DNA from: a virus
Lineage: Duplodnaviria; Heunggongvirae; Uroviricota; Caudoviricetes
Reading direction: 5' to 3' (one strand)
Virus record (IMG/VR): IMGVR_UViG_2671180921_000016
DNA: 10,202 nt
Position numbers and translations under genes: made by a program. Position 1 is the stretch's first letter. Each line of letters begins with the position of its first letter. Of the stretch, positions 6,492-9,403 are shown one piece after another. The notes below the pieces were generated by a model that made no database searches, was not told the origin of the DNA, and worked only from the letters and a program-made list of their open reading frames with translations.

Positions 6492-6632
6492 GCCTGTTAT
6501 CCGGCAATAGTGGCGCTTCGCTACATGGTTGATATAATCCCCCTGCACAGATTCATTTTTTGCGCAGTAGGTTAATTGTTCGCAAGGGCGCTCCGGCAAC
6601 GAGGCGCTTTTTGTTATGTGCATCGCTCCCCC

Positions 6633-6842
6633 TTACACTGTCTGCGTTCTGCGAGTGGATGCAAGATAAGCATCGAGATCAGTGCGCATATACAGCACTT
6701 TGCGCCCCAGCTTATGGAAAGGGATTTTTACCTTGCCAGTACAGGCCCAGTTCGCCAGCGTTTGATTGTTAACGCCAAGGTAGGCAGCAGCTTCAGCACG
6801 TGTAAGGCGGTCAGTTGATAAATCAGATTTCTTTAAATTCAT
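6633..6842 (-). CDS. Excisionase-family / AlpA-like HTH DNA-binding protein (putative Xis or island regulator)
   Basis: LTRAEAAAYLGVNNQTLANWACTGKVKIPFHKLGRKVLYMRTDLDAYLA matches the excisionase-type HTH pattern (LT.eEAA.yLGVs..TvyrW...G.lp..k.Grk..y...dLdayL). ATG 6842 has a GGTGA Shine-Dalgarno; the track start at 6851 is GTG. Confidence 0.75.
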   Translation of the reverse strand: MNLKKSDLSTDRLTRAEAAAYLGVNNQTLANWACTGKVKIPFHKLGRKVLYMRTDLDAYLASTRRTQTV

Positions 6843-6912
6843 ATCTATCACCGTGTACTTCTAAGTAACAACGGTGATAAATATCAATCAATGGGTATTT
6901 TGTTTTTAGCCC

Positions 6913-7000
6913 AATAGCCAGTTGCTGTGGGGAGGTTACCAGTTATTTAGCCTTAATAGCCAGCTATTAAGATACACTAGCCAGCTATTGGGGGTGAACA
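6913..7000. repeat. Direct repeats TAGCCAGCTATT at 6957-6968 and 6978-6989, degenerate copy AATAGCCAGTT at 6913-6923, and an iteron-like GGTGAACA at 6993-7000, in the upstream region of the Xis/AlpA-like gene
   Basis: Read directly from the sequence. The repeats span the stop codon of the 241-aa gene and the promoter region of the 6633-6842 gene. Confidence 0.5.
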
Positions 7001-7710
7001 AGTTCAAACGAAGAATATTTATCAGGTCTTGGTGGTTGTGCTCCTGATTCTTTAATCCATTTATCCAGAGTGTTTTTACTTACTTTCCCATGATAGTAAA
7101 CAGAAAGCTCGTTCAATAAACCTGTTTTACTGGCTTTAGGGTACTTTTCCCATGTTAGTTTAATTACGTGCATAACTTCATTGTAATAATGATTTCTTGG
7201 TTTGCACGCTTTTTCTTTCTGTGATAAGGATAAAGCATCTTTTATTTTTTTATCTTTTTCATGGTTCGATATAATTTCTTCAAAAAAGTCATTAAGCAAT
7301 AACTCAACACCAACCCTAGTAAGTTTGTCTGCGTGATTACGCATTCCGACATGGTACAATGCAACTGCTGAATTTAAAGTATCGACAACCTGACAAGATA
7401 GTTTACTATCAAATATTAAAAAACCACATGAATCCATTCTTATAGCTAATTCAATAGGATATTGCTCGATTTCTCTTAATTCTAAACCATAACACAAAAG
7501 AAATTCTCTTGTTGGATACTTTGATTTATAAAAATAATCTCTTATATCATCAATCAAGCGTTTTATAGCCTCTATGGTGGAGTTTTTCGGGGATAAAGAT
7601 ACAGGAACGTTTAAAACTGAAGAGTCTCGCCCACCAGTAATTAAATCATTCATAACCGAATAAATAATATATTGTTTTACCGATATATTGTTATCACCCA
7701 TATATGTCAT
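6985..7710 (-). CDS. Hypothetical 241-aa protein encoded by a strongly AT-rich gene whose start overlaps the integrase stop; no recognisable domain
   Basis: Track ORF. The start (ATG 7710 or 7701) overlaps the integrase TGA at 7694-7696. Base composition is visibly AT-rich (roughly one-third GC) against about 50% in flanking genes. Lys/Asn/Ile/Tyr-rich protein. Confidence 0.7.
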   Translation of the reverse strand: MTYMGDNNISVKQYIIYSVMNDLITGGRDSSVLNVPVSLSPKNSTIEAIKRLIDDIRDYFYKSKYPTREFLLCYGLELREIEQYPIELAIRMDSCGFLIFDSKLSCQVVDTLNSAVALYHVGMRNHADKLTRVGVELLLNDFFEEIISNHEKDKKIKDALSLSQKEKACKPRNHYYNEVMHVIKLTWEKYPKASKTGLLNELSVYYHGKVSKNTLDKWIKESGAQPPRPDKYSSFELVHPQ

Positions 7711-9124
7711 TCTTTTCTTGTACTATAGCAAATAGTAAACGACGTTTTTCATCATCACTCATGCCCTCCAGTGCGGAAAGTAATTGCGCATCGATAGATT
7801 TTTTACTCTCCACCAGCCCAGCATGTTCCAGAATTGCCCGTTCTATCCGTGATGCTGGCTCCAGCAGTTCATCAGCACCGAAATGTAAATACCCCTGCGT
7901 TACGTCGGCACTTCGCATAGTGCGGTGATTCATCAGGCGCTTGAGGATGTAATTACCCACGCCCACCAGCTCAGCAATCGTTCCGAACGTCCGGCGTGCG
8001 TCGTGCCACTTAAACGGGACAGGGAAGAGCATTTCATCGTTCGCCTCAGGAATGGTAGCCGCGCTTATCCGGTCTATGATGTGCCGTGTCTCCTGAATCA
8101 CTCCCTTCACGCCAGGAAACACCAGCACATCATCAGCAGCTTTGTTTTTTAGCCTGCGAAGAAACATTTTCCGCAACGTATCAGTGATCGGCAGTTCAAG
8201 CGGATCCCCGTTTTTCGTGGTGTCTATCCAGAAAAAGCGACCGCCCATATTCACGCGATCCCACGTAAGGCCAAAAACTTCTGATTTCCTCAGTCCGGTA
8301 AACAGTGCCATTTCCACGGCATCACATACCGTAACAGCTATATCATCCCTTTCCTGTTCGCCCTGGTCGCGCACAGCAGCTACAGCAGCTACAGCAGCAA
8401 ACCAGCGGGGAAAATCATGCAGGCGGATACGTTCCGTTTTTCTTACTGTTCCGTGCCACTGGCGCTTGGTGCTCAGTACCAGAGTCGGCGGATCCGGTAA
8501 AAGAGTATTACCCGCATCATCACGGTAATGATCATGCGCAAACCGACACACAGCACGTAGCGCACGCGCCCATAAATCGGCCTGTGCCTTGCTTCCTGTA
8601 CCAACCCCAGCCCGTAACGTGGTTTTATCAGCACCGAACCATACAGCCCCATCAGTGATGGCCTTATGCCGTTGTTCCACCCGTTCGCGGGAAATACTGG
8701 CGAGGGAATGGGCCATCCAGTCACCGGAATAATTCTGTAATATGCTGCGGTACTGTTTTTCTGTGGAGGGTTTCAGGCGGTGGCCACGATTTTTTACGTA
8801 GGCGTCAATCGCCTCACTCAGCGTTATCATGGCCTTGTTGTTAGTGCGCTTTGCTATGTTCGGATTTATCCCCGTTGTGGCGACTTCGCCAAGGAGTTCC
8901 ATAGCTTTAGCCCTGGCATTATCCACGCTCAGATCAGGAAAACGCCCCAGCGTTGCACGAATAAATTTTCCGTTACGCTTACGGGAAATGCAGAAACTTT
9001 TCACACCAGACGAACCTACACGGACACGCAGCCCGTTAACCTCCGTATCACCATATTCGACCTGTCCATGTTCCGGCGTTGGCAGTTCTGCAATTTTTAC
9101 TTTAGAGAATCTGAATAATTTCAC
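7694..9124 (-). CDS. int: Tyrosine site-specific integrase, P4-like family (476 aa, GTG start)
   Basis: N-terminal arm-binding-type domain (GLRVRVGSSGVKSFCISRKRNGKFIRATLGRFP). Catalytic signature residues: R in FTGLRKSEVFGLTWDRV, HxxR in WHDARRTFGT, R/H/Y in LMNHRTMRSADVTQGYLH. Adjacent to the tRNA remnant. Confidence 0.92.
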   Translation of the reverse strand: MKLFRFSKVKIAELPTPEHGQVEYGDTEVNGLRVRVGSSGVKSFCISRKRNGKFIRATLGRFPDLSVDNARAKAMELLGEVATTGINPNIAKRTNNKAMITLSEAIDAYVKNRGHRLKPSTEKQYRSILQNYSGDWMAHSLASISRERVEQRHKAITDGAVWFGADKTTLRAGVGTGSKAQADLWARALRAVCRFAHDHYRDDAGNTLLPDPPTLVLSTKRQWHGTVRKTERIRLHDFPRWFAAVAAVAAVRDQGEQERDDIAVTVCDAVEMALFTGLRKSEVFGLTWDRVNMGGRFFWIDTTKNGDPLELPITDTLRKMFLRRLKNKAADDVLVFPGVKGVIQETRHIIDRISAATIPEANDEMLFPVPFKWHDARRTFGTIAELVGVGNYILKRLMNHRTMRSADVTQGYLHFGADELLEPASRIERAILEHAGLVESKKSIDAQLLSALEGMSDDEKRRLLFAIVQEKNDIYG

Positions 9125-9138
9125 TCATACACCCCACC

Positions 9139-9300
9139 AAGCGATCTGGTATCCTGGAAAATCGCTTGTTCTGCTCCAGGATACCTATAGGATACCGTAA
9201 AGAAGTATTTTGGGGTATATACAGGTATTTATACAGTAGTTTTAAAAAATGCTAAGGTATTGAAAAGTATCGCTAAGTATCTGTAAGTAAAGGGTTATCA
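9139..9300. promoter_or_regulatory. Integrase promoter / arm-type site region: dyads AAGCGAT...ATCGCTT and GGTATCCTGG (9148-9157) / CCAGGATACC (9178-9187), second AGGATACC at 9190-9197, TATACAG x2 (about 9218-9236), CTAAG(G)TAT repeats (9251-9280)
   Basis: Repeats read directly. Located between the integrase start and the tRNA-derived core, where arm-type recombinase binding sites and the int promoter are expected. Confidence 0.45.
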
Positions 9301-9304
9301 ACCA

Positions 9305-9350
9305 ACTCATAATCGCTTGGTCGCTGGTTCAAGTCCAGCAGGGGCCACCA
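9305..9350 (+). repeat. tRNA 3'-end remnant (anticodon loop CUCAUAA with anticodon CAU, T-arm GCTGG-TTCAAGT-CCAGC, acceptor 3' strand AGGGGCC, then ACCA): attR-type island junction, most consistent with tRNA-Ile2 (ileX)
   Basis: The sequence ends in GGGGCCACCA with a canonical T-arm, but the complementary 5' acceptor strand (GGCCCCT) and D-arm are absent upstream, so this is a partial copy. Identity to ileX is from memory, supported by the adjacent yqjH-like gene (order mug-ileX-yqjH in E. coli K-12). Confidence 0.75.
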
Positions 9351-9360
9351 GATATAGCAA

Positions 9361-9395
9361 AGGCTGACGAGAAATCGTCAGCCTTTTTCTTTTTA
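9361..9395 (+). terminator. Rho-independent terminator (AGGCTGACG-AGAAAT-CGTCAGCCT then TTTTCTTTTT) downstream of the tRNA remnant, between it and the yqjH-like gene
   Basis: 9-bp perfect stem followed by a T-rich tract. Likely the native tRNA terminator. Confidence 0.7.
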
Positions 9396-9403
9396 TATAT
9401 CAG

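What the first reader, a model, noticed from the sequence alone, without database searches (positions are those of the whole stretch)
6985..7710. AT-rich orphan gene overlapping the integrase stop, in the variable slot next to int
The 241-aa ORF has a base composition sharply different from the rest of the island (roughly one-third GC against about half), which suggests recent acquisition from an AT-rich source. Its start overlaps the integrase stop, so it is co-expressed with int. I recognise no domain in the protein. In P4-like satellites and related islands, the locus next to the integrase is a known hotspot for variable anti-phage cargo, often single-gene abortive-infection proteins, so this is the best candidate in the window for an undescribed defence or accessory function.
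Basis: partly seen in the sequence, partly recalled or inferred. Interest (0 to 1): 0.78.

Follow-up and report, generated by a model that had tools for sequence, protein, structure and literature searches.

The report
Integrase-coupled regulator gene of phage satellite
The AT-rich gene after the integrase is not an orphan defence gene but belongs to an undescribed family found in a subset of enterobacterial phage satellites, and it probably binds four repeated DNA sites in front of the satellite's master switch gene alpA, so it may be how the satellite senses its helper phage.

Summary
A real 238/241-aa gene lies at 6985-7701/7710 (-). It has 32% GC against 51% for int and overlaps the int stop codon. 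The gene is not an orphan and the slot does not take unrelated cargo. Every related island inspected (E. coli, Salmonella, Klebsiella, Hafnia, Acerihabitans, metagenomes; 12/12 context look-ups) has a homologue there, always int -> X -> alpA and always AT-rich. The family has 139 clusters, and every named member sampled is from Enterobacterales and called "hypothetical". It combines one conserved C-terminal ~80-aa helix-turn-helix-like domain with an N-terminal part in at least 55 unrelated forms. Right after the stop codon lie four palindromic sites spaced exactly 21 bp apart, ending about 77 bp before the alpA start. Their sequence changes with the X C-terminal domain, not with Int or AlpA. 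Best reading (inferred, confidence 0.5): X is made together with Int and binds these operators to gate alpA, with the variable N-domain as input. The closest precedent is "iolg" of Vibrio PICMI satellites, which is needed for excision and has no known mechanism. A defence role is neither supported nor excluded.

The parts
6985..7701 (-). Gene X, 238 aa (241 aa if translation starts at 7710). It is an integrase-overlapping gene from an uncharacterised family of Enterobacterales satellites.
   Evidence: ORF; RefSeq CDS; homologues; dN/dS 0.23; AF2 pLDDT 91.8.
7402..7701 (-). Hypervariable N-terminal region of X (about aa 1-100), helical. Proposed input/sensor domain.
   Evidence: Identity is 7-31% between islands even when the C-domain is 93% identical. 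There are 55 BLAST clusters among 127 representatives. dN/dS is about 1.0 on 8 non-synonymous and 2 synonymous changes. In the B2 allele only the 3' 273 nt are shared with B1, which indicates a domain swap.
7207..7401 (-). Central region of X (about aa 101-165), containing the conserved LNSA..L..G..N.A..L motif and a 45-residue helix (aa 121-166). Possible dimerisation element.
   Evidence: Alignments A1 and A3; secondary structure of the model; 0 non-synonymous changes between the two alleles. Dimerisation itself is an inference.
6988..7206 (-). Conserved C-terminal domain of X (about aa 166-238): a basic arm (KPRN), three helices with an HTH-like pattern (…GLLNELSVYYHGKVSKNTLDKWIKES), and a conserved Pro-rich tail (PPxPxKYxxFxLV).
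6974..6991 (-). Operator O1 (CCAATAGC-TG-GCTAGTGT). It overlaps the X stop codon TAG at 6987-6985.
6952..6971 (-). Operator O2 (CTTAATAGC-TG-GCTATTAAG), a perfect 9+2+9 palindrome.
   Evidence: Inverted repeat I7.
6932..6949 (-). Operator O3 (AAATAAC-TG-GTAACC), a degenerate copy in exact 21-bp register.
   Evidence: offsets 18/39/60/81 in all type-A loci.
6910..6928 (-). Operator O4 (GCAAC-TG-GCTATTGGG). Its centre is about 77 bp upstream of the alpA ATG.
   Evidence: (I6).
6836..6891 (-). alpA control region. It has a weak promoter-like pair (TTGATT 6891-6886, 16-nt spacer, GTTACT 6869-6864; read by eye, speculative) and a strong hairpin that pairs the alpA Shine-Dalgarno sequence (GGUGAU) and the AUG.
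   Evidence: Fold -23.3 kcal/mol, z -6.9. Analogous hairpins with different arm sequences occur in other island types. The promoter scan found no strong promoter here.
6633..6842 (-). alpA-like gene (HTH_17), the presumed target of control and the master activator/excisionase of Gram-negative PICIs.
   Evidence: Pfam HTH_17, E 1.4e-11; RefSeq CDS. The role of AlpA is taken from PMC6092414, PMC11773190 and PMC10803314.
7694..9124 (-). Tyrosine integrase (Arm-DNA-bind_3 + Phage_integrase). Its stop codon is overlapped by the start of X.

Best explanation
Gene X is a backbone gene of a subfamily of enterobacterial phage satellites (PICI/cfPICI type), not cargo. It is transcribed, and probably translationally coupled, with the integrase. 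Its product has two parts. The conserved C-terminal domain is a helix-turn-helix-like module. It recognises four palindromic operators (AATAGC-TG-GCTATT in this island) that start at the X stop codon, are spaced 21 bp centre to centre, and end about 77 bp before the alpA start. The N-terminal ~100 residues are hypervariable and act as the input domain, most plausibly contacting a helper-phage protein. By occupying these operators X gates expression of alpA, the master activator/excisionase, and so links helper-phage presence to excision and induction.

The direction of control is unresolved. Activation is mildly favoured for two reasons. The operators lie upstream of the putative -35, with the proximal one at about -62. 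In Vibrio PICMI satellites, loss of the analogous gene iolg abolishes excision rather than causing it.

Shown here: the family, the synteny, the domain pattern, the operators, and their co-variation with the X C-domain. Inferred: DNA binding itself, dimerisation, the effect on alpA, and sensing of a helper.
For: (1) Synteny is strict. int -> X (overlap -3 to +19 nt) -> 108-166 bp -> HTH_17/AlpA in all 12 context look-ups and in all inspected E. coli islands.
(2) There is one C-terminal domain and many N-termini: 1 against 55 BLAST clusters among 127 representatives. L002 and L004 are 93% identical in the C-domain but 31% in the N-part.
(4) The operators are not chance. CTGGCTAKT occurs 3 times in the window, all at 6913-6984, against 0.16 expected, and 0 of 200 shuffles reach 3. 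The 21-bp register is exact in all type-A loci, and sites are conserved while spacers drift. Phased repeats are significant (p <= 0.017) in 10 of 14 loci. O2 is a perfect 9+2+9 palindrome.
(5) The operator sequence follows the X C-domain, not Int or AlpA. L002 vs L006: Int 96%, AlpA 92% with an identical HTH stretch, X C-domain 27%, and different operators. Window vs Klebsiella L010: Int 58%, AlpA 65%, X C-domain 65%, and the same operator. L002 vs L030: Int 58%, AlpA 63%, X C-domain 64%, and the same operator.
(6) The geometry is conserved. The proximal operator centre lies 77 +/- 4 bp from the alpA ATG in both type A and type B.
(7) Precedent: PICMI iolg overlaps int, lies before alpA, and is needed for helper-induced excision (PMC10803314). 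How helpers switch on alpA is stated to be unknown (PMC6092414, PMC10803314).
Confidence: 0.5

Rival explanations
1. X is an excision cofactor and not a transcription factor. As proposed for PICMI IOLG, it joins Int and AlpA in the excisive complex, and the downstream repeats serve another protein or another purpose.
For: The coupling with int is conserved. In PICMI115, int, iolg and alpA are all needed for excision, and the authors propose a three-protein excision complex (PMC10803314).
Against: The repeats that co-vary with X lie about 2.2 kb from the att junction upstream of int, so they are not in an intasome arm. No copy of the motif occurs near 9125-9400. The sites keep a fixed distance from the alpA start. 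A protein that activates alpA would give the same excision-negative phenotype.
Confidence: 0.2
2. X is a single-gene anti-phage (abortive-infection type) protein carried in a 5' cargo hotspot.
For: PICIs are reported to carry immune systems at their 5' or 3' ends (PMC11364771). The N-terminal region is hypervariable, as in many phage sensors. No housekeeping or known regulatory family matches.
Against: No PADLOC match. No enzymatic, toxin-like or membrane domain is seen in a confident all-helical model. The slot never holds an unrelated gene. The family is tied to int and alpA across genera (12/12 look-ups). Recognisable defence cargo in a relative sits after the primase instead (GAPS4 in L010). 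The family is absent from phage and plasmid collections.
Confidence: 0.12
3. The phased palindromes are bound by AlpA (autoactivation sites) or by a host or helper protein, and the conserved C-terminal domain of X does something else, for example contacting Int.
For: AlpA activates its own promoter in other PICIs (PMC6092414, PMC11773190). Xis/AlpA-type proteins often bind arrays of repeats (my own knowledge). The conserved Pro-rich tail of X could be a protein-docking motif.
Against: Islands whose AlpA HTH stretch is identical (L002 and L006) have unrelated operators, and islands with 65%-identical AlpA (window and L010) share operators. Islands with 95-96% identical Int also differ in operators.
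Confidence: 0.15
4. The ORF is a chance or decaying reading frame in AT-rich foreign DNA.
For: Atypical composition and no library domain.
Against: dN/dS is 0.23, falling to 0-0.10 in the conserved two-thirds. There are 139 homologous clusters. The fold prediction is confident. Length and position are conserved across the family.
Confidence: 0.01

Closest known systems
IOLG/ICG (integrase-overlapping or integrase-contiguous genes) of PICMI satellites in Vibrionaceae (PMC10803314)
   Same: The gene overlaps the int stop by a few nucleotides, lies between int and alpA on the same strand, has no known domain, and is very diverse (13 unrelated families in PICMIs). It is proposed to be constitutively co-expressed with int. 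It is genetically required for helper-induced excision.
   Different: The host clade is different (every named member sampled is from Enterobacterales), and the satellites are larger PICI/cfPICI types. Sequence or fold homology to Vibrio IOLG was not tested. Here a single conserved HTH-like C-domain and matching operator arrays are identified, neither of which is described for IOLG. No phenotype is known for X.
Stl/Rpr master repressors of SaPIs and other Gram-positive PICIs (as summarised in PMC6092414)
   Same: A satellite-encoded protein co-transcribed with int. A DNA-binding module is fused to a highly divergent partner-binding part. It sits next to the control region of the induction genes. 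Diversity is thought to track different helper-phage inducers.
   Different: Stl has its HTH at the N-terminus and is transcribed divergently from the genes it represses. X has its HTH-like domain at the C-terminus and points the same way as alpA. There is no sequence similarity. Repression and phage-protein binding are not shown for X, and the geometry together with the PICMI genetics leans towards activation.
Lambdoid CI-type immunity regions (tandem 17-bp palindromic operators; my own knowledge)
   Same: Three to four palindromic operators of 14-20 bp, regularly spaced, between a regulator gene and the early gene it controls. This suggests cooperative binding of dimers.
   Different: X has no HTH_3 or Peptidase_S24 domains. 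The operators appear to lie upstream of the target promoter and not over it. The gene order is co-directional.
Defence hotspot next to int in P4-like satellites (Rousset et al. 2022, cited in PMC11364771)
   Same: The position is next to the integrase of a phage satellite, and the locus is highly variable in sequence.
   Different: The island is not P4-like (no psu/delta/sid genes). The slot always holds the same family, and no defence family matches.

Membership tests
Integrase-overlapping gene (iolg) class of satellites (PICMI paper, PMC10803314) | The start of the gene overlaps or abuts the int stop codon on the same strand. | tested here: met
   The overlap is 8 nt (ATGGGTGA) in the window. 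It ranges from -3 to +19 nt in 11 family loci.
Integrase-overlapping gene (iolg) class of satellites (PICMI paper, PMC10803314) | The gene lies between int and alpA in a satellite that has int, alpA and a primase. | tested here: met
   and 12/12 context look-ups.
Integrase-overlapping gene (iolg) class of satellites (PICMI paper, PMC10803314) | The gene is required for helper-induced excision. | not testable with these tools
   This needs a non-polar deletion and a helper phage.
Integrase-overlapping gene (iolg) class of satellites (PICMI paper, PMC10803314) | Sequence or fold homology to PICMI115 IOLG. | not tested
Every named family member sampled is from Enterobacterales. The PICMI authors themselves list 13 unrelated iolg/icg families, so homology does not define the class.
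Gram-negative PICI / cfPICI satellites | int, alpA and primase are co-oriented, with an ori after the primase and no tail or lysis genes. | tested here: met
   int, HTH_17, D5-type primase and SSB are present. Iterons follow the primase. Close relatives carry a ClpP-capsid fusion gene. No tail or lysis genes are annotated.
Gram-negative PICI / cfPICI satellites | Induction and mobilisation by a helper phage. | not testable with these tools
   Requires experiment.
P4-like satellite defence-hotspot cargo | The element carries the P4 core genes (psu, delta, sid, epsilon, alpha). | tested here: not met
   None is annotated in the 28.7-kb EC12 locus. The layout is int-alpA-primase.
P4-like satellite defence-hotspot cargo | The slot holds unrelated genes in otherwise related islands. 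| tested here: not met
   All islands inspected with this integrase hold a family member.
P4-like satellite defence-hotspot cargo | A match to a known or candidate defence family. | tested here: not met
   PADLOC returns 0 families at E <= 1.
P4-like satellite defence-hotspot cargo | An anti-phage phenotype. | not testable with these tools
   Requires plaque assays.
Helix-turn-helix / winged-helix DNA-binding domains | A three-helix bundle with a recognition helix that is recognisable by profile or fold. | tested here: inconclusive
Helix-turn-helix / winged-helix DNA-binding domains | Specific cognate DNA sites. | tested here: inconclusive
   Phased palindromes co-vary with the domain. Binding itself was not measured.
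SaPI Stl / PICI Rpr master repressors | An N-terminal HTH and divergent transcription from the repressed operon. | tested here: not met
   The HTH-like module is C-terminal, and the gene is co-directional with alpA.
SaPI Stl / PICI Rpr master repressors | Derepression by binding a helper-phage protein. | not testable with these tools
   Requires interaction assays.

The most novel reading that the evidence does not exclude
X is the missing helper-phage sensor of a large subfamily of Gram-negative PICIs. In this reading it is a constitutively made, Int-coupled protein whose hypervariable N-domain binds a specific helper-phage protein, and whose conserved C-terminal HTH then switches alpA on or off through the four phased operators. 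The 55 or more N-domain forms would then record which helper each satellite recognises. This would be functionally parallel to Stl in Gram-positive bacteria but with an independent origin.
Probability: 0.25. Interest if true: 0.85.

Novelty: new variant of a known kind. Interest (0 to 1): 0.6.

Why it matters
Papers on Gram-negative PICIs and on PICMIs state that it is unknown how a helper phage switches on alpA, the gene that is necessary and sufficient for satellite induction (PMC6092414, PMC10803314). They also state that the integrase-overlapping gene needed for excision has no known function. This analysis offers a concrete, testable candidate for a subset of enterobacterial satellites. 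It identifies a protein family with a fixed DNA-binding module, defined operators at a fixed distance from alpA, and an input domain that is swapped between otherwise near-identical islands. If the model is right, it would explain helper specificity and allow helper range to be predicted from the N-domain type. It would also provide matched regulator/operator pairs (at least five specificities) for engineered PICI tools. It corrects the easy assumption that an AT-rich unknown gene next to an integrase must be defence cargo.

Tried and rejected
- Library searches of X found nothing usable. Pfam, NCBIfam, PADLOC and PHROGs gave only sub-threshold noise; the best was PHROG 'transcriptional regulator', E 0.047, on the C-domain.
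- PDB sequence searches found nothing, with the full-family profile or the C-domain profile.
- tblastn found nothing in phages and one weak hit in plasmids.
- The search for related loci on GTDB representative genomes failed with the diverse alignments and found no relative with A1.
- Rfam found no family in the window.
- Integrase arm sites were considered for the repeats and rejected. The repeats are 2.2 kb from att, and they differ between islands whose Int is 95-96% identical.
- AlpA sites were considered and rejected because of the discordant pairs.
- ori iterons were considered and rejected, because the iterons lie after the primase.
- A packaging (TerS/cos) role was considered and rejected on domain order and position.
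- I checked whether studied PICIs carry X. EcCIMP1 has only a 427-bp gap with tiny ORFs. In EcCICFT073 alpA appears to follow int directly (PMC6092414).
- The Cell 2022 paper on PICI immune systems could not be read.

Full report
**Observation.** RefSeq annotates the same frame from the second ATG (7701, 238 aa, 'hypothetical protein', WP_062898229.1) in E. coli EC12, whose chromosome matches the window at 99.1-99.5%. The N-termini of the homologues align with that start. The integrase (7694..9124, Arm-DNA-bind_3 + Phage_integrase) ends with TGA at 7696-7694, so the two genes overlap by 8 nt, or 17 nt from the upstream ATG. GC is 0.31-0.33 through the gene against about 0.5 on both sides. GC3 is 24% against 49% for int. 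No Pfam, NCBIfam or PADLOC model matches, and PHROGs gives only noise. The gene is under purifying selection (dN/dS 0.23 against a 96.8%-identical allele).

**Setting.** The window holds no tRNA. The island sits beside nfeF (yqjH) and reads int - X - alpA-like HTH_17 - small genes - Icd-like - DUF4222 - D5-type primase - SSB - ProQ/FinO - PerC. This is the int/alpA 'integration zone' followed by a replication zone, as described for Gram-negative PICIs (PMC10111431, PMC6092414), and not the P4 layout. Near relatives at the same site carry a ClpP-capsid fusion gene, the mark of capsid-forming PICIs.

**X is not an orphan and the slot does not take cargo.**
- The integrase occurs in 85 of 5426 complete E. 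coli genomes.
- 24 of these carry this X allele.
- 54 carry a second type, B1, and 4 carry a third type that shares only the last 273 nt with B1.
- At least one inspected island carries a fourth type.
- In every island inspected, a 206-266-aa 'hypothetical' gene overlaps the int stop and is followed by alpA.
- These genes are homologous to X. They share a C-terminal motif, S..KPR(N/H)..Y.E...I..TW.KYP.AS…VS..T...WIK.SG..PP.P.KY..F.LV, behind N-termini that look unrelated.

A profile search of 1.84 billion representative proteins found 139 clusters, 79 of them below 1e-10, mostly 190-280 aa. All twelve context look-ups gave int -> X -> HTH_17/Phage_AlpA. They covered Salmonella, Klebsiella, Acerihabitans, Hafnia and metagenomic contigs, with several integrase and primase types. 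Every named member sampled is from Enterobacterales and is called hypothetical. The family is absent from the phage collection and practically absent from plasmids. All eleven members measured are AT-rich (32-40% GC beside int genes of 46-51%). Low GC is therefore an old property of the family, not evidence of a recent import. Its cause remains unexplained.

**Operators.** Four related sites lie directly after the stop codon, with the first overlapping it. Their central TG dinucleotides are at 6983/82, 6962/61, 6941/40 and 6920/19, exactly 21 bp apart. O2 is a perfect 9+2+9 palindrome, CTTAATAGC-TG-GCTATTAAG (inverted repeat I7). The core CTGGCTAKT occurs three times in the 10.2-kb window, all here, against 0.16 expected, and none of 200 shuffles reaches three. 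In an alignment with five other type-A loci, including a Salmonella and a Klebsiella locus, the sites are conserved while the spacers drift. Other islands have equivalent arrays with different sequences:
- type B: AAATC-CA-GATTT, four copies at 20 bp;
- type C: TTTCCC-CT-GGGAAA;
- type D: CATARC-YG-GYTRTG;
- type E: ATAGC-G-GTTAT.

A simple statistic (copies of an 8-mer with 19-22-bp or 40-43-bp spacing, 300 shuffles) gives p <= 0.017 in 10 of 14 loci. Three loci are marginal and one is not significant.

**Who binds the operators?** Operator class follows the X C-domain:
- L002 vs L006: Int 96% and AlpA 92% identical, with an identical AlpA HTH stretch, but X C-domains only 27% identical. Their operators are unrelated.
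- Window vs Klebsiella L010: Int 58%, AlpA 65%, X C-domain 65%. They share the operator.
- L002 vs L030: Int 58%, AlpA 63%, X C-domain 64%. They share the operator.

This argues against Int arm sites and against AlpA sites, and for the X C-domain as the specificity determinant. One caveat is that X, the intergenic region and the 5' end of alpA tend to move as one block. The sample is also modest.

**Geometry and direction of control.** In types A and B the centre of the alpA-proximal operator lies 77 +/- 4 bp upstream of the alpA start codon. No strong promoter is detected. By eye, a weak pair (TTGATT 6891-6886, 16 nt, GTTACT 6869-6864) would place the start near 6857 and the operators at about -62, -83, -104 and -125. 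That is upstream of the core promoter, where activators usually sit. This step is speculative.

The alpA leader folds into a strong hairpin (-23.3 kcal/mol, z -6.9) that pairs the Shine-Dalgarno sequence and the AUG. Other island types have analogous hairpins with different arm sequences. Transcripts reading through from int-X would contain both arms and be poorly translated. Transcripts starting at the putative alpA promoter would lack the 5' arm. This resembles the fold-back inhibition known from IS10 (my own knowledge). It suggests that alpA is insulated from the int-X transcript.

**Comparison with what is known.** The closest precedent is 'iolg' of Vibrio PICMI satellites (PMC10803314). 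That gene overlaps int by 1-13 nt, lies before alpA, has unknown function and falls into 13 unrelated families. It was found necessary for helper-induced excision and transfer. The authors propose that int and iolg are constitutive and alpA is phage-induced, and they ask how the helper activates the early genes. X meets the positional criteria of that class. Its phenotype and its homology to Vibrio IOLG could not be tested.

Conceptually X resembles SaPI Stl, which is co-transcribed with int and pairs a DNA-binding module with a divergent partner-binding module (PMC6092414). The domain order and gene orientation differ, however, and there is no sequence similarity. The excision-negative iolg phenotype fits an activator or cofactor better than a repressor.

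X is not universal. EcCIMP1 has only a 427-bp gap between int and alpA. EcCICFT073 appears to have alpA directly after int (PMC6092414). Both are still induced through alpA.

It is partly supported: the composition break, the coupling to int, the lack of a library domain and the high variability all hold. 'Orphan', 'recently acquired', 'P4-like' and 'slot for unrelated cargo' do not hold. PICIs can carry immune genes at their 5' end (PMC11364771), so a defence function is not excluded. There is no defence-family match, no effector-like domain, and a conserved link to the alpA control region. A relative carries recognisable defence genes (GAPS4) after the primase instead.

**Verdict.** X is a real, uncharacterised backbone gene of a subfamily of enterobacterial phage satellites. 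It is most likely an Int-coupled, operator-binding regulator of alpA with a swappable input domain (confidence 0.5). The direction of control and any helper sensing remain unresolved. I class it as a new variant of a known kind (integrase-overlapping satellite genes) and rate its interest at 0.6.

Noticed in passing
window 6836-6889 (-): The alpA leader forms a strong hairpin (-23.3 kcal/mol, z -6.9) that pairs the Shine-Dalgarno GGUGAU and the AUG. Other island types keep a hairpin there with different arm sequences. It may keep read-through transcripts from int-X from being translated into AlpA.
   Followed up: partly
window 2770-3000: An AT-rich stretch (GC 0.34) just after the primase gene holds about ten copies of GGTGAACAGT in both orientations. 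This is probably the satellite's replication origin (iterons).
   Followed up: partly
window 8373-8398: A perfect 9-nt tandem repeat (ACAGCAGCT x2.9) lies inside int and encodes AAVAAVAAV. The window has one more copy than strain EC12 (1414 vs 1405 nt aligned), so the integrase carries an in-frame repeat-length polymorphism.
   Followed up: partly
window 5481-5501 (EC12 locus L001 12086-12517): The window lacks about 411 bp that EC12 has between the Icd-like gene and the plus-strand small genes. The 394-aa ORF 5439..6623 (-) is probably spurious except for its last ~62 codons, which are the Icd-like gene.
   Followed up: partly
window 5782-5976 (+): A small plus-strand ORF opposite to the island's main direction gives a weak Arc-like repressor PHROG hit (phrog_228, E 3.4e-5) and a sub-threshold HicB hit. 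It is a possible second regulator between alpA and the replication genes.
   Followed up: no
window 7667-7705: A 16-nt direct repeat (GGGTGATAACAATATAT / CGGTAAAACAATATAT on the coding strand) spans the int stop and the first codons of X. A promoter-like match lies on the same strand (7694-7666). Its significance is unknown.
   Followed up: no
window 6985-7701 and 10 homologues in other loci: Every member of the family measured is AT-rich at all codon positions (GC3 24% here), including the conserved domain, across several genera. The reason is not explained; silencing by H-NS-type proteins or a shared recombining gene pool are possibilities.
   Followed up: partly
L010 13265-14618 (Klebsiella relative): GAPS4 defence genes (PDDEXK_GAPS4, GAPS4b_N) lie just after the primase. 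This matches the published PICI cargo hotspot next to pri and shows where recognisable defence cargo sits in these islands.
   Followed up: no
window 1452-1976 (-) and 1183-1497 (-): The island also encodes a ProQ/FinO-domain protein and a PerC-family regulator. These are accessory regulators that could act on host RNA or on virulence genes.
   Followed up: no
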